Counted from the stretch's first letter, positions 22,016 through 57,054 are shown. The stretch: DNA of 64,000 nt from a bacterium (GCA_030698495.1 JAUYKA010000017.1:1319-65318), one strand, 5' to 3'. The notes: generated by a model from the letters alone, not told the origin. Numbers and translations: made by a program.

Positions 22016-22143
22016 GTGAATACAGTAAATACAGTAAATTAAGTAAATACAGTTACTGTATTTACTGTCCTCGCCTTGCCCGCCGTAGCCTTGTGCGAAG
22101 GCTGGGCTGTATTCACTGTATTCACTTAATTTACTGTATTCAC
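22016..22143. repeat. Family-2 mosaic palindromic element, copy A. 37-nt inverted arms built of TAAATACAG 9-mers flank a CGCCCGCC + AGCCTTGTGCGAAGGCT hairpin core
   Basis: It exactly fills the gap between convergent genes. Left arm GTGAATACAGTAAATACAGTAAATTAAGTAAATACAG, right arm CTGTATTCACTGTATTCACTTAATTTACTGTATTCAC. Confidence 0.65.
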
Positions 22144-22147
22144 TAGG

Positions 22148-23548
22148 TCAGGCTTCCCAGCTCTCCCCCTCCATCGGATACCTGACTTGCCATTCCGGAT
22201 GCTTCCTTTCCAGCTCGCGCTTAAATTCCTCTGCCTGCTCCGCTTCTCCGTGAACCAAGAACACACGCTTTACCCCTTTAAACCGTCCCAGATATTCTTT
22301 TAATTCTTGATGATCCGGGTGCGCTGAAAACTCATTAAAAACCTCAACTTCCGCTTTCACCGGAAATAAATCCCCTAGCAACTCTACTTTCTTAACCCCC
22401 TCCAATAACTGCCGGCCCATCGTCCCCTGTGCCTGGTATCCCGTAATTAATACCGCGTTTCTGGGATCGCTGATGCTATGCCGCAAATGATGCACCACCC
22501 GCCCGGAGCTCATCATCCCCGATGCGGAAATAACAACGTATGGACCAGGTTTAACATTCAGAGACTTTGATTCCTCAATATCCCGCACATACGTCAGATT
22601 GCGAAAAGTCAGCGGCCTCACCGCGTGCGAAAAATCCACCACCGTCTCTTTGTCATAGTCATCTTTGTGCTCTTTAAACACATCCGTTACTTCCACTGCC
22701 AAGGGCGAGTCCACAAAAATCGGCACCCGCGGAATCTTCTTCTCGTCGGTCAGCTTGTGTAAAATGTACACGATCATTTGCGTCCGTCCCAACGAAAAGG
22801 CCGGCACAATTATTTTGCCGCCGCGATCAACTACCTTATTTATTACCTGTGCCATCCGCTCTATCGCCTGTTCCAGCGGTTCGTGATCGCGCCCGCCATA
22901 CGTGCTCTCCGTTAAAACCGTCTCTACTTCTTCTTCCGGCACTTCCGGATCATAGAGCAACGGCACGTTTTTCGCTCCCACATCGCCGGTATAAACCAGT
23001 CGTTTTTTACCCCCGCCATTATCCACTTCCAGCATCGTAATAGCCGAACCTAAAATATGGCCGGCATCATAAAATTTCAGCCGCCATCCTGGCCACAACT
23101 CATGCCAACTTGCATCATGGCGCGCGTAAGGGATTTCCTCGAAACGCTCCATTACCGGCTCCACATCTGCCGGCGTATAAAGCGGTACCCGATCATCCGG
23201 CGCGCCAATCTTATGCTTAGCCCGATATATCGCGTCCTGCACTTCGATTCCCGCCACATCTTTCATCATATGATAAGCCACGTCTCTCGTTGCCGGCGTC
23301 GCGTATATTTTCCCGGCAAATCCTCGCTTCACCAATATCGGCAGCATCCCGCAATGATCCACGTGCGCATGCGACAATACCACGCCGTCAATCGAATCCG
23401 GCTCAAACGGCAGCGCCCGATTGCGCTCACGCACATCCTGCAACCCTTGAAACAAACCACAATCCAGAAGTAGCCGCTTGCCCTGCGCTTCTACCAAATG
23501 TTTACTGCCGGTTACACCGCCAGCCCCGCCATAAAATGTGATAATCAT
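22148..23548 (-). CDS. rnj: Ribonuclease J (metallo-beta-lactamase / beta-CASP family)
   Basis: HAHVDHCG zinc motif, beta-CASP and RMMBL regions; 466 aa. Confidence 0.9.
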   Translation of the reverse strand: MIITFYGGAGGVTGSKHLVEAQGKRLLLDCGLFQGLQDVRERNRALPFEPDSIDGVVLSHAHVDHCGMLPILVKRGFAGKIYATPATRDVAYHMMKDVAGIEVQDAIYRAKHKIGAPDDRVPLYTPADVEPVMERFEEIPYARHDASWHELWPGWRLKFYDAGHILGSAITMLEVDNGGGKKRLVYTGDVGAKNVPLLYDPEVPEEEVETVLTESTYGGRDHEPLEQAIERMAQVINKVVDRGGKIIVPAFSLGRTQMIVYILHKLTDEKKIPRVPIFVDSPLAVEVTDVFKEHKDDYDKETVVDFSHAVRPLTFRNLTYVRDIEESKSLNVKPGPYVVISASGMMSSGRVVHHLRHSISDPRNAVLITGYQAQGTMGRQLLEGVKKVELLGDLFPVKAEVEVFNEFSAHPDHQELKEYLGRFKGVKRVFLVHGEAEQAEEFKRELERKHPEWQVRYPMEGESWEA

Positions 23549-23620
23549 GTTTACCTATGATACTAAAGAATGCTTCAATAAAAAAGCGATGCCCTAAACA
23601 ATCGTTCACTTATGAATACA

Positions 23621-23702
23621 AAGTAGTAAGTAGTATGTAGTTAATAGCAAGGACGCACGGTACTGTACCCCTTGCTACTAACTGCTTACTACTTGCTACT
23701 TA
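23621..23702. repeat. Hairpin repeat IR1 (AAGTAGTAAGTAGTATGTAGTTAATAGCAAGG..loop..CCTTGCTACTAACTGCTTACTACTTGCTAC) overlapping the cupredoxin gene stop
   Basis: Homologous to IR2 at 24311-24384. Its 3' arm encodes the gene's C-terminal VVSSK-stop. Confidence 0.6.
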
Positions 23703-24351
23703 CCACTATTTCCCCCGTCAGAGTCGGATTCAAATGATCATGAAATCCCCAGCTACCAACCTTATCAAAAACAAACGAATACTCTTCACCTGTCTGCAAA
23801 CCATGCTTGGCGTCAAATCCCGGTAAATCGGTATGCACGGGATGAGGATCCGATGCCGGCCAATGCGCTGCCTGGCCATTATTAACAAATGTTACTTTCG
23901 TCCCCGCCGCCACTGTTACCGTCGCCGGCGTAAATCCGGTATCGCCAATATCGACCGTCACCTCTTCCGCCACCGCCCCGTTTTCACCCATCACTTCGCC
24001 ATTACCCTCATCAGCTACCGTGCCCCCATCCATCATCTCCCCTATACCTTGATCGTCAACCGGCAACTGTGACGGTTCACGCAACAGTACCTGGCCATCA
24101 CCGTTATTTATCTCCCGCATAACCGAACCAATCTCATCAGACGACATGTCAACGCTTCGCCCCTTTTGCCAATACCACGCCCCAGCTACTACTATCAACA
24201 CAATTAAACCAACTAACCACAAAGATTTTTTCATAAATAACTTATTATGGATCATTTTCTTTAGTCTGTCCGGATATTTATCAATACGCAAGATCATCTT
24301 CAAACAACAAAGCAGCAAGTAGTATGTAGCTAGAAGCAAGCACTCACCCAC
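23689..24351 (-). CDS. Cupredoxin-fold (plastocyanin-like) domain protein with N-terminal TM anchor; real start probably MKKSLW at 24234
   Basis: C-terminal His-rich beta-sandwich region HWPASDPHPVH...GSWGFHDHLNP. The ORF's first 39 codons are translation of the upstream hairpin. Confidence 0.45.
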   Translation of the reverse strand: MGECLLLATYYLLLCCLKMILRIDKYPDRLKKMIHNKLFMKKSLWLVGLIVLIVVAGAWYWQKGRSVDMSSDEIGSVMREINNGDGQVLLREPSQLPVDDQGIGEMMDGGTVADEGNGEVMGENGAVAEEVTVDIGDTGFTPATVTVAAGTKVTFVNNGQAAHWPASDPHPVHTDLPGFDAKHGLQTGEEYSFVFDKVGSWGFHDHLNPTLTGEIVVSSK

Positions 24352-24384
24352 GCCGCTCTCTTGCTACTTACTACTTGCTACTTT
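24311..24384. repeat. Hairpin repeat IR2 (AGCAAGTAGTATGTAGCTAGAAGCAAG..loop..CTTGCTACTTACTACTTGCT) in the 5' leader of the cupredoxin gene
   Basis: Same repeat family as IR1, in the same orientation. Confidence 0.6.
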
Positions 24385-24435
24385 GTTTCTACTGTGAAAT
24401 TGCACAATATACATCCGCGCTCAATATGCGCCAAC

Positions 24436-55474: not shown

Positions 55475-55520
55475 AAGCTACAAAGTCGACGACACCCCGT
55501 CAACTACTGGCTACATGTCT

Positions 55521-55916
55521 TTAAACGTCATCTTCCTTGGCCAAATCCAGACACACCGAGTTAATGCAATATCTCTTGCCTCCTTTGTCCCGCGGACCGT
55601 CATCAAACACGTGCCCCAAATGCGCACCGCATTTCTTGCACACCACTTCCGTGCGCTTTATCCCATGACTAGTGTCTTCCTTGAGTTCTATATGAGCCAA
55701 GTTAGCCGGCTCGGTGAAACTGGGCCAACCCGTGCCCGAATCAAACTTAGCGTCGGAGGCAAACAAAACATTACCGCAAACAGCACACTTATACATCCCC
55801 TTCTCGTGACTACCTGCATACTTACCGCTAAAAGGAGTTTCTGTTCCTTTGCGCCGTGCCACCCGTAAAAGCTCCGGGTCCAACTCCTCATCTTTTTTTA
55901 CGTGCTCTTTACCCAT
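55521..55916 (-). CDS. msrB: Peptide methionine-(R)-S-oxide reductase
   Basis: Two CxxC zinc motifs, catalytic GWPSF, and HLGHVF. Confidence 0.9.
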
Positions 55917-55932
55917 AAATACTCGTTAATGT

Positions 55933-56130
55933 TTAAGTAATTCTTGATATTTCTCCTTCTACTTCCGCATGTCCCGTCCGGCCCGTCGCCACTTGCTCGT
56001 AACTGGGATTTTCTTCTTTACCGCCGGCATAGCCCGGCATAACGGAAACAACTCCCCGCAACTGCCCAAATACCGCCTCCGTGCACCAGAAGCACCCGCC
56101 ACCAAATACCGCTGTTCCTCTTTCTGCCAT
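55933..56130 (-). pseudogene. msrA: Truncated msrA remnant (N-terminal 57 aa including the catalytic GCFWC, then out-of-family residues and a stop)
   Basis: [21 protein letters not shown]...GHAEV then a divergent tail. No MsrA-like continuation is found in the other frames. Confidence 0.55.
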
Positions 56131-56148
56131 GTTAACATTGTAACAAGA

Positions 56149-56841
56149 ATGTCAAATATGAATACTACAAAGGTGACCCTAAAACCGCCATTATTCATCA
56201 TCACCCTGGCTCTACTAATTATCGGCGCCTTTATCTGGAAGTCACTCCCCGACATAACTTCTCCGGTATTGCCAGAGCCTAGCAATCCTCCTGTCACTCC
56301 CGCCCAAACAGTTCTCTTACCCACCCGGCAACCCAAAACACCCTCCCTTATCGAACCAGTTGCTCAATTCAAACAGCGTGTCACTAAAAAACCTTTTGGT
56401 ATATATGTAACCCCGCAAAATTCTCCCGTTCAGCCCGAGCGCTTTACCGGCTATCATACCGGTGCTGACACCGAATATGCAGATATTGCCGGCCCTGTTC
56501 CGGTTTATTCTGTCGCTGCCGGCCGGATTCTAACCGCCCAATGGGTTTCCGGCTACGGCGGCCTGGTAGCAGAACAAATAACTATCAATAATCAGCCCAT
56601 AATAGCAATTTACGGACATCTTAACCCGTCTTCTCTGCCTTCAGTTGGACAACAAATTTCAGCCGACGAGCAAGTCGGCCTTCTAGGTACAGATTATACC
56701 AACCAGACCGACGGTGAAAGAAAGCACCTGCATTTCAGCTTAGTCAAAGACACCGCCGTTAACCTAAAAGGTTACGTCCAAAACAAATCCGCCCTCTCCG
56801 ACTGGATAGATCCTATGAGCCTAAATTACACTTCACCTTAA
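56149..56841 (+). CDS. M23-family (LytM-like) metallopeptidase, membrane-anchored
   Basis: HxxxD (GYHTGAD) and HxH (HLHF) zinc motifs. The ATG at 56149 avoids overlap with the msrA remnant. Confidence 0.8.
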
Positions 56842-56883
56842 ATCAGCCGTCTTCCGATAAACAAACACAGCGAGTTCAGCTCC

Positions 56884-57054
56884 TGTATTTACTGTACTCG
56901 CTTCGCCCGCCGAAGCCTTTGGCGAAGGCTGGGCTTCGCCCGCCGACCGTGTCCCTCCGTAGCTTTGTGCGAAGGGGGAAGCTTTAGGCAAAGGCTGGGC
57001 TTCGCCCGCCATAGCCTTTGGCGAAGGCTGGGCTGTATTTACTTTATTTACTTT
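56884..57054. repeat. Family-2 mosaic element, copy B. CTGTATTTACT termini flank three tandem units of GCTTCGCCCGCC-(G/A)-AGCCTTTGGCGAAGGCTGG
   Basis: Same core words as 22016-22143 (CGCCCGCC, the AGCCTTTGGCGAAGGCT hairpin, GGGCTGTATTTACT). Confidence 0.65.

What the first reader, a model, noticed from the sequence alone, without database searches (positions are those of the whole stretch)
22016..57054. Second structured repeat family (mosaic palindromic elements) filling convergent-gene gaps
The two copies are 22016-22143, between a small membrane gene and rnj, and 56884-57054, between the M23 peptidase and the DUF4870 gene.

They share these modules: CTGTATTTACT terminal words, CGCCCGCC, and the hairpin AGCCTT(T)G(G)CGAAGGCT followed by GGGC.
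- Copy A has 37-nt imperfect inverted arms made of tandem TAAATACAG 9-mers.
- Copy B instead triplicates the internal unit GCTTCGCCCGCC-N-AGCCTTTGGCGAAGGCTGG, and its terminal words are in direct orientation.

This is BIME/REP-like modular shuffling. The CCTTTGGCGAA word also occurs in the REP-like units at 40410-40440. These are candidate bidirectional terminators or mobile MITE-like units specific to this lineage.
Basis: seen in the sequence. Interest (0 to 1): 0.55.

Follow-up and report, generated by a model that had tools for sequence, protein, structure and literature searches.

The report
Tiny GC-rich REP-like hairpin module
The two repeats are real: each carries a ~34-base GC-rich hairpin unit that also occurs, nearly letter for letter, in many unrelated environmental bacteria, often at the tip of other hairpins or in frame inside essential genes. 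It therefore looks like a very small REP-type mobile hairpin and not a repeat specific to this lineage.

Summary
**Observation: confirmed.**
- Copy A (22014-22145) is a stop-to-stop palindrome. Its 39-nt arms are made of TAAATACAG 9-mers around one GC-rich unit (22073-22106).
- Copy B (56883-57054) holds three head-to-tail 33-nt units. The middle unit is split by a nested fourth unit.
- All of this sits between direct CTGTATTTACT words.

**Host.** A Candidatus Andersenbacteria bacterium (Patescibacteria/CPR).

**Interpretation: partly supported.**
- The unit RGCCKTG-CCCGCCG(T/A)AGCCTTNNGCGAAGGCTGGG is REP-like but not lineage-specific.
- Exact-pattern scans found it in 111 metagenome stretches (contig GC 0.33-0.69). 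It is also in genomes of Patescibacteria, Verrucomicrobiota and Planctomycetota.
- In GC-rich contigs it forms the loop of GTAG/GTGG-tagged REPs.
- In low-GC, CPR-like contigs it often lies in frame inside housekeeping genes such as MnmA, UvrA and LeuRS. PDB alignments show these as extra segments.
- Related Andersenbacteria with the same gene order lack copy A.
- There is no Rfam match, no U-tract terminator and no RAYT-like ORF in the DNA held.
- The CCTTTGGCGAA link to 40410-40440 is near chance. That site is a CGTC-type REP.

**Best reading.** A non-autonomous hairpin module of the REP class that has nested into a native 9-mer hairpin.
- Mobility is inferred from nesting, insertions and empty sites.
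- The mobilising enzyme and any terminator or RNA-stabilising role are untested.

The parts
22014..22052 (+). Copy A, left arm: about 4.3 tandem 9-mers (AGTRAATAC/TAAATACAG). It starts 1 nt after the TGA stop of the 73-aa gene.
   Evidence: I4: 39 nt, 85% complementary to 22107-22145; period 9.
22053..22066 (+). Copy A: TTA loop plus CTGTATTTACT. This 11-mer pairs with the last left-arm unit. It is also the left member of the direct 11-mer pair that flanks the GC-rich insert.
   Evidence: Deleting 22067-22117 leaves an 88-nt near-perfect hairpin with a TTA loop.
22067..22072 (+). GTCCTC linker, shared with copy B (GTACTC) but not with the cross-phylum consensus.
   Evidence: D6.
22073..22106 (+). 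Copy A GC-rich unit: GCCTTGCCCGCCGTAGCCTTGTGCGAAGGCTGGG. Inner hairpin AGCCTT/AAGGCT, outer CCC/GGG.
   Evidence: Covariance model R1 scores 58.7 bits, E about 1e-8, for its match 22073-22109. Exact pattern match.
22107..22145 (+). Copy A, right arm of tandem CTGTATTCA 9-mers. It ends 2 nt before the stop of the beta-CASP MBL gene (22148-22150, - strand).
   Evidence: I4, I7.
56883..56899 (+). Copy B: left CTGTATTTACT word plus the GTACTC linker.
   Evidence: D6.
56900..56932 (+). Copy B unit 1 (33 nt): GCTTCGCCCGCCGAAGCCTTTGGCGAAGGCTGG.
   Evidence: R1 scores 54.5 bits for its match 56900-56936.
56933..56946 (+). Copy B unit 2, 5' part (GCTTCGCCCGCCGA), cut off by the nested insert.
   Evidence: joined to 56980-56998 it matches unit 1 at 30 of 33 positions.
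56947..56979 (+). Nested 33-nt unit CCGTGTCCCTCCGTAGCTTTGTGCGAAGGGGGA, inserted at GA^AG of unit 2. It is a diverged copy of the family consensus with a 2-nt deletion.
   Evidence: alignment to the consensus and to the copy A unit. Logan contigs break inside it.
56980..56998 (+). Copy B unit 2, 3' part (AGCTTTAGGCAAAGGCTGG).
   Evidence: 2-mismatch match at 56980-57000.
56999..57031 (+). Copy B unit 3 (33 nt): GCTTCGCCCGCCATAGCCTTTGGCGAAGGCTGG.
   Evidence: R1 scores 50.1 bits for its match 56999-57035. It matches unit 1 at 31 of 33 positions.
57033..57054 (+). Copy B: right CTGTATTTACT word, in direct orientation to 56883-56893, followed by TTATTTACT.

Best explanation
The shared part of the two repeats is a ~34-nt GC-rich hairpin unit, RGCCKTG-CCCGCCG(T/A)AGCCTT-NN-GCGAAGGCT-GGG. 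It belongs to the REP class of small, non-autonomous, hairpin-forming repeated DNA.

**Shown**
- The unit exists as single, tandem and nested copies.
- It is inserted relative to relatives and to protein homologues.
- It tends to sit at or next to the apex of another hairpin.

**Reading of the two window copies**
- Copy A: one unit, with a duplicated CTGTATTYACT word, lies 11 nt from the tip of a native long AT-rich hairpin built from tandem 9-mers. This genome places such hairpins in many intergenic gaps.
- Copy B: the unit was amplified head-to-tail, and a further unit then landed inside the middle copy.

**Inferred, not shown**
- Spread is by a single-strand hairpin-recognising mechanism supplied in trans. 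A RAYT/IS200-like HUH enzyme is the obvious candidate.
- Copies persist where they are tolerated: 3' gene ends, hairpin tips and surface loops of proteins.
- Once transcribed, the hairpins may act as 3'-end barriers or stabilisers for both convergent mRNAs.
For: **Not chance**
-.

**Same unit in distant organisms, beyond the search pattern**
- Of the 50 genome contigs matches, about half lie in coding sequence. About 18 of the non-coding ones also carry CCCGCCG(T/A) upstream, which the pattern did not require. They come from Patescibacteria (Doudna-, Ames-, Saccharibacteria), Opitutaceae, Akkermansiaceae and Planctomycetota.
- 111 metagenome stretches match, with contig GC from 0.33 to 0.69. 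The upstream T-G-C, also not in the pattern, is conserved in 65, 84 and 84 of 93 distinct sequences.

**Apex position**
- 35 of 109 distinct instances have an instance-specific flanking stem of 7 or more pairs. About 13 are expected from mismatched-flank controls. Most of these stems are preceded by GTAG or GTGG.
- This matches the tagged REPs of PVC bacteria described in PMC3733652.

**Insertion and nesting**
- Relatives at about 65% protein identity with the same gene order have a 24-nt gap or overlapping genes where copy A sits.
- Copy B unit 2 is split by a unit.
- L141 has a full unit exactly in the loop of another unit.
- Deleting 22067-22117 restores an 88-nt hairpin.

**In-frame copies inside genes**
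- 38 of 57 instances on contigs with GC of 0.50 or less lie in stop-to-stop ORFs of at least 120 aa. All six frames are used.
- The host genes include MnmA, UvrA and LeuRS, where PDB alignments show 14-21 extra residues.
- This parallels the intragenic REPs in uvrA and tRNA-synthetase genes reported in PMC3733652.

**Other**
- Both copies are identical in an independent MAG of the same species.
Against: - No RAYT-like ORF (HUH plus YxxxNP motifs) was found among 4289 ORFs of the window and all loci. This was a crude motif test.
- The copy number in this genome is unknown. Only two loci were seen in about 75 kb.
- The GTAG tag is imperfect: GTAG, GAAG and ATAG all occur, and its AG is paired within the stem.
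- The inner stem is only 6 bp.
- Near-identity of a REP-like unit across phyla is not what vertically inherited REP/RAYT systems are expected to show.
- Both window copies share the same flanking 11-mer. That word could be part of the copied segment and not a target-site duplication.
- No compensatory changes were seen. Diverged copies show mostly C-to-T decay.
- Orientation bias relative to GC skew is weak: 34 against 20.
Confidence: 0.55

Rival explanations
1. The hairpins are host-encoded functional 3'-end structures. They would act as bidirectional terminators or exonuclease barriers for the convergent genes, and they evolved in place. The repeats look alike because the function constrains them, not because they move.
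For: - Copy A abuts both stop codons and is an extremely stable hairpin on both strands.
- Another convergent gap (16562-16667) is also filled stop-to-stop by a long palindrome of 7-mers.
- REPs in general sit close to 3' ends.
Against: - No U-tract follows either hairpin.
- Copy B does not fold better than shuffles.
- The same unit lies inside coding regions of housekeeping genes in all six frames.
- Units are nested within one another.
- Relatives with the same gene pair do without it.
- This reading may hold for the AT-rich 9-mer arms, but it does not explain the GC-rich unit.
Confidence: 0.2
2. It is a MITE-type element moved by a DDE transposase. The 9-mer arms would be terminal inverted repeats, and CTGTATTYACT an 11-bp target-site duplication.
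For: - Copy A has inverted arms.
- 11-mer direct repeats flank the GC-rich segment in both copies.
- Removing the segment plus one repeat restores a clean hairpin.
Against: - Copy B has no inverted arms.
- The same 11-mer flanks both copies, which is unexpected for independent duplications unless the target is very specific.
- AAATACA-type words are common native 3'-flank sequence in this genome and at the syntenic site of a relative.
- Instances in other genomes have unrelated flanks and no consistent duplication.
Confidence: 0.1
3. It is a structured non-coding RNA gene or ribozyme with a conserved core and variable outer helix.
For: - The core is strongly conserved across phyla, with instance-specific flanking stems.
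- The C-to-T variants in the 5' arm would remain G-U pairs in RNA.
Against: - No Rfam family matches, even at E up to 10.
- No promoter-like signal stands out above the shuffled expectation.
- The unit occurs in both orientations relative to genes, and inside ORFs in six frames.
- Tandem and nested copies exist.
- No compensatory covariation was seen.
Confidence: 0.07
4. It is a DNA-uptake-signal-like sequence that is favoured during natural transformation.
For: - It occurs as hairpins after genes and in frame inside genome-maintenance genes such as uvrA. This resembles the known distribution of uptake sequences (from memory).
Against: - The density is far too low: 2 loci in about 75 kb.
- The unit is 34 nt, not 9-12 nt.
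- Sharing across phyla is not expected for uptake signals.
Confidence: 0.03

Closest known systems
GTAG-tagged REPs, BIMEs and REPINs (E. coli, Pseudomonas; Opitutus terrae and Rhodopirellula baltica families in Di Nocera et al. 2013, PMC3733652)
   Same: - A short GC-rich imperfect palindrome with a G(T/A)AG motif at its 5' side.
- Single, head-to-tail and clustered arrangements.
- A position close to stop codons between convergent or co-directional genes.
- In-frame intragenic copies in uvrA, tRNA-synthetase and tRNA-modification genes.
- In GC-rich metagenome contigs the unit is literally the loop of GTAG/GTGG-tagged stems.
   Different: - The inner stem is only 6 bp, and the AG of the tag is paired.
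- GAAG and ATAG variants occur.
- No RAYT was found.
- Copy number is unknown.
- The unit is nearly identical across phyla, whereas REP families are usually specific to a species or genus.
- In CPR genomes it usually lacks the outer tagged stem.
Rickettsia palindromic elements (RPE) and intragenic REPs
   Same: Palindromic selfish DNA found in frame inside essential protein-coding genes, adding short peptide segments.
   Different: RPE-1 is about 100-150 bp and confined to Rickettsia (from memory). Here the unit is about 34 nt and is seen in several phyla. Both window copies are intergenic.
Cyanobacterial small dispersed repeats (SDR) nested in heptamer STRR arrays (Elhai et al. 2008, Genome Res 18:1484; recalled from memory, not held in the searchable library)
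   Same: - Very small (20-30 nt) dispersed repeats.
- Found inside tandem short-repeat arrays and hairpins, and nested in one another.
- This genome also carries many intergenic tandem 7-mer and 9-mer arrays.
   Different: The sequences are unrelated and the phylum is different. The comparison rests on memory and was not tested here.
CGTC-tagged REPs (Neisseria dRS3, Rickettsia RPE-4 and RPE-6)
   Same: These are present in the same window (40370, 40411, 51084, 51149, 8677, 2124). They have a YGTC tag, an 8-bp stem starting with AT and a CCA tail. In other CPR-like contigs the GC-rich unit is nested in GTCATCCTG-type hairpins.
   Different: This is a different family from the finding. The shared CCTTTGGCGAA word at 40429 lies in a different hairpin register and occurs at near-chance frequency.
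Intrinsic (Rho-independent) terminators
   Same: A stable hairpin directly after stop codons, usable from both strands.
   Different: No U-tract follows the hairpins. The consensus scan found nothing convincing at either copy.

Membership tests
REP (GTAG-tagged repetitive extragenic palindrome) | A 20-40 bp imperfect palindrome that can form a stem-loop. | tested here: met
   The 34-nt unit has a 6-bp inner stem plus a 3-bp outer stem.
REP (GTAG-tagged repetitive extragenic palindrome) | An unpaired GTAG tag (or GYAG, GTRG, GTGG) at one end of the stem-loop. | tested here: inconclusive
   - In the window, GTAG occurs in copy A and the nested unit, GAAG in unit 1 and ATAG in unit 3.
- Across 93 distinct sequences the variable position is T 50, A 35, G 5 and C 3.
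- The AG of the tag is part of the stem.
- In GC-rich contigs a separate outer GTAG/GTGG-tagged stem encloses the unit.
REP (GTAG-tagged repetitive extragenic palindrome) | Many dispersed copies in one genome. | tested here: inconclusive
   - Two loci carry 4 units plus 1 nested unit in about 75 kb of this species.
- Short-read contigs break inside both loci in two samples. Hairpin-related coverage loss could also explain the breaks.
REP (GTAG-tagged repetitive extragenic palindrome) | Mostly extragenic, close to 3' ends, between convergent or co-directional ORFs. | tested here: met
   Both window copies lie in convergent gaps, and copy A runs from stop to stop. Elsewhere the unit is frequently intragenic, as reported for O. 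terrae REPs.
REP/RAYT system (REPtron) | A cognate RAYT (HUH Y1 transposase) gene flanked by the repeats. | not testable with these tools
   No ORF with HUH plus YxxxNP motifs was found in the window or in any of the loci held at that point. The host genome could not be scanned, and the test used motifs only.
MITE | Terminal inverted repeats plus a target-site duplication of fixed length. | tested here: inconclusive
   Copy A has 39-nt inverted arms and copy B has none. Direct CTGTATTYACT 11-mers flank the GC-rich part in both copies but are identical between loci.
Intrinsic terminator | A GC-rich hairpin followed by a U-tract. | tested here: not met
   The only weak match is unit 3 followed by GGCTGTATTT. 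No U-run follows copy A on either strand.
Any Rfam RNA family | A covariance-model match at or near the gathering score. | tested here: not met
   No hit at gathering score in the window. Only noise-level hits at E up to 10 on both loci.
   The window copies are intergenic. Intragenic copies elsewhere lie in unrelated proteins and in all six frames. Unrelated coding matches (the AFGEGWA motif) were recognised and set aside.

The most novel reading that the evidence does not exclude
The ~34-nt unit is an autonomous kind of 'hairpin-tip' parasite. It would be a minimal mobile DNA that moves within and between genomes of distant phyla (CPR, Verrucomicrobiota, Planctomycetota). It would home to the apex of existing hairpins, such as REP stems, tandem-repeat hairpins and other copies of itself, and into protein loops. 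Its mobilisation machinery would not be the classic species-specific REP/RAYT pairing.
Probability: 0.2. Interest if true: 0.75.

Novelty: new variant of a known kind. Interest (0 to 1): 0.5.

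Why it matters
- **REP-class elements in the CPR.** I found no description of REP-like elements in Patescibacteria in the searchable literature. These bacteria have ultra-small, streamlined genomes where selfish DNA is expected to be rare.
- **Same unit across distant phyla.** This 34-nt unit recurs nearly unchanged in CPR and PVC bacteria, at hairpin tips and in frame inside essential genes (UvrA, LeuRS, MnmA). 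That raises a concrete and testable question: what moves or maintains such a tiny element across phyla?
- **Practical consequences.** The unit breaks short-read assemblies and creates spurious ORFs. One example is the 59-aa 'hypothetical protein' that NCBI annotated on copy B. It also adds peptide segments to real proteins.

Tried and rejected
- **Rfam.** Gathering-score scan of the window, then E up to 10 on both loci and gathering score on 20 related loci. Nothing relevant.
- **tRNA/tmRNA.** None found.
- **Link to 40410-40440 through CCTTTGGCGAA.** Near-chance frequency and a different hairpin register. That site is a CGTC-type REP.
- **Phage vector.** Only 1 viral contig carries the unit.
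- **RAYT near copies.** A motif scan of 4289 ORFs found none.
- **Census through spurious ORFs.** A search with the 59-aa ORF called on copy B returned only itself.
- **Literature search for the sequence.** Only unrelated primer matches.
- **Strand bias against GC skew.** 34 against 20, not convincing. No bias toward convergent gaps outside the window.
- **Covariation.** Pattern-selected copies are invariant by construction. The few diverged copies show decay, not compensation.
- **Synteny test for copy B.** The M23/DUF4870 pairing is not conserved in the relative examined.
- **CRISPR array.** Rejected. The units are contiguous, without spacers.
- **Assembly breaks as proof of multicopy status.** Kept only as weak evidence, because I saw no repeated stretch long enough to explain them and hairpins can also cause breaks.

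Full report
**1.

Reading the two loci and running the repeat tools confirms the description.
- The hairpin-plus-tail word AGCCTTNNGCGAAGGCTGGGC occurs three times exactly and once with two mismatches, only at these loci. None is expected in shuffles.
- CTGTATTTACT with up to 1 mismatch occurs ten times, all in the two loci, against 0.64 expected.
- The loci share 59 nt at 86% identity and 72 nt at 78%.

Copy A:
- It has 39-nt arms (22014-22052 and 22107-22145, 85% complementary), each a period-9 array.
- It folds at -51 to -56 kcal/mol, with z of -6.5 and -7.7.
- It runs from one stop codon to the other of a convergent gene pair.

Copy B is not more stable than shuffled sequence.

- The 'rnj' gene is a CPSF-type beta-CASP MBL protein.
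- The CCTTTGGCGAA link to 40.4 kb is near chance.

**2. Anatomy**

The two copies share more than the hairpin. The common segment is CAGNTNCTGTATTTACTGT(C/A)CTCGCYTYG-CCCGCCG(T/A)AGCCTTNNGCGAAGGCTGGG-CTGTATTYACTKTATTYACTT. The GC-rich part is therefore bracketed by direct 11-mers.

In copy A, deleting 22067-22117 (the GC-rich part plus one 11-mer) leaves an 88-nt near-perfect hairpin with a TTA loop.

Copy B is three head-to-tail 33-nt units:
- Units 1 and 3 match at 31 of 33 positions.
- Unit 2 matches unit 1 at 30 of 33 once a 33-nt segment (56947-56979) is removed.
- That segment aligns to the family consensus, so it is a unit nested inside a unit at GA^AG.

**3. Host and local comparison**

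- The flanking MBL protein is 100% identical to a protein that NCBI names from a Candidatus Andersenbacteria MAG.
- Contigs of GCA_034372665.1 are 99.85-100% identical to the window and carry both copies unchanged.
- Two other Andersenbacteria, at about 65% protein identity, keep the MBL gene convergent with a 74-79-aa gene. One has a 24-nt gap there and in the other the genes overlap. Copy A is therefore a lineage-specific gain.
- Short-read contigs from two samples end inside both elements. This is suggestive of a repeat or of heterogeneity, but it is not proof.
- Model R1 finds no further unit in the window, in about 11 kb of extra flanking sequence of the same species, or at more than a degenerate level in the relatives.

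**4. The unit is not lineage-specific**

Genome scan:
- The hairpin-plus-tail pattern returned 50 stretches from one genome per species.
- About half are coding sequence (an AFGEGWA motif).
- About 18 non-coding ones also have CCCGCCG(T/A) upstream, which was not in the pattern.
- They come from Doudna-, Ames- and Saccharibacteria, other Patescibacteria, Opitutaceae, Akkermansiaceae, other Verrucomicrobiota and Planctomycetota.

Metagenome scan:
- A stricter pattern found 111 stretches, on contigs with GC from 0.33 to 0.69.
- Only one viral contig matched.
- Positions outside the pattern remain conserved. The consensus is RGCCKTG-CCCGCCG(T/A)AGCCTT-NN-GCGAAGGCT-GGG.

**5. Context elsewhere**

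GC-rich contigs:
- The unit is flanked by instance-specific complementary stems. 35 of 109 distinct instances have 7 or more pairs, against about 13 expected.
- Most of these stems are preceded by GTAG or GTGG.
- This is the architecture of the tagged REPs that Di Nocera et al. described in Opitutus terrae and Rhodopirellula baltica, which also report complex conserved loops.
- The O. terrae GTAG-18 peptide VGPALAAG corresponds to the stem seen in my Opitutaceae hits.

Low-GC, CPR-like contigs:
- The unit stands alone or inside other hairpin families (CCCCTCCTC...GAGGAGGGG, GTCATCCTG...).
- 38 of 57 instances lie within stop-to-stop ORFs of at least 120 aa, in all six frames.
- Host proteins include MnmA, Fic, LeuRS, UvrA, a SufS-like desulfurase, a CCA-adding enzyme, mevalonate kinase, RsmE and a histidine kinase.
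- PDB alignments show the unit-encoded peptide inside 14-21 extra residues in MnmA, UvrA and LeuRS.

Modular behaviour:
- L141 shows a full unit exactly in the loop of another.
- L081 keeps the CCCGCCGTAG...AGGCTGGG frame around a different inner hairpin.

**6. What it most likely is**

- Small size, hairpin form, tandem and nested copies, empty syntenic sites and in-frame intragenic copies together point to a non-autonomous REP-class module.
- It is either mobile or was recently mobile, and it survives where it does little harm.
- Its recurrent position at or beside hairpin tips fits a mechanism that acts on extruded single-stranded hairpins, or selection that tolerates insertions only there.
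- The enzyme is not identified. No RAYT-like ORF was seen in the DNA held, and the host genome could not be scanned.
- A role as a bidirectional 3'-end hairpin is plausible for copy A. This genome also fills another convergent gap (16562-16667) with a long 7-mer palindrome. However, there is no U-tract and no expression data.
- The AT-rich arms look like the native structure and the GC-rich unit like the guest.

**7. What remains odd**

- Near-identity of a REP-like unit across phyla is not expected for vertically inherited REP/RAYT systems.
- The exact unit is rare overall, roughly 130-160 copies in about 10^12 bases scanned. It is nevertheless spread over many lineages.
- Diverged relatives could not be collected with exact-pattern scans, so covariation and phylogeny of the unit are untested.

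**8. Verdict**

- It is best filed as a new variant of REP-class hairpin repeats, first seen here in a CPR genome.
- Interest is moderate. It would rise if the cross-phylum 'hairpin-tip' behaviour proves to reflect a distinct mobilisation mechanism.

Noticed in passing
window 40370-40450, 51084-51150, 8650-8685, 2095-2125: There are at least six CGTC-tagged REPs of the Neisseria dRS3 / Rickettsia RPE-6 type. Each has a YGTC tag, an 8-bp stem starting with AT (ATTCCGGA and similar), a 4-6 nt loop and a CCA tail. The pair at 51084(+) and 51149(-) is a head-to-head dimer inside an outer inverted repeat (51055-51078 / 51152-51175). The copy at 40411 has a long loop that is itself an 8-bp hairpin.
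   Followed up: partly
window 421-452, 6900-6926, 12087-12112, 15571-15596, 16562-16667, 18645-18671, 19541-19654, 23621-23707, 24306-24387, 25337-25351, 37322-37340, 37860-37989: About 17 intergenic tandem arrays of period 7, each gap with its own heptamer (AAATACA, AAATTGA, AAACGCA, CTTACTA, AATTTCC and others). They are often arranged as inverted arms forming long AT-rich hairpins, one of them stop-to-stop between convergent genes. This resembles cyanobacterial STRR arrays, but in a CPR genome.
   Followed up: partly
window 525-690, ~1960-2060, 8451-8620, 11087-11254: A separate GC-rich structured repeat family of about 165 nt with 25-29-nt terminal inverted repeats. It contains the hairpin GCCCGCC-GCTGG-GGCGGGC. 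There is no Rfam match at gathering score. Two MAG contigs of the same species end inside copies.
   Followed up: no
window 1-64000: GC skew is very strong and uniform, from -0.16 to -0.33 in 2-kb windows. It persists through the + strand ATP-synthase operon.
   Followed up: no
window 56953-56978; 22087-22092: Independent short-read assemblies from two samples (SRR13727534, SRR26726065) break at the same points inside copy B and inside the copy A unit. I saw no repeated stretch in the window long enough to explain the copy B break, which hints at other genomic copies or strain heterogeneity.
   Followed up: partly
L170 10676-10855 (= window ~56833-57012, - strand): NCBI annotation calls a 59-aa 'hypothetical protein' (U1C49_01215) entirely on copy B. 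This is a spurious ORF created by the stop-free GC-rich units.
   Followed up: yes
L052 13455-13492 (relative Andersenbacteria, GCA_040900375.1): A degenerate unit (GGCTCGCCTCGCCGAAGCCTTAGGCGAAGGGCGGGTC, 15.6 bits) lies inside the 3' end of a cyclase-family gene. The family therefore exists in diverged form in related genomes.
   Followed up: partly
window 33711-34001: A 132-nt direct repeat at 71% identity with CTTACTA heptamer runs lies within the long - strand ORF 31764-34079.
   Followed up: no
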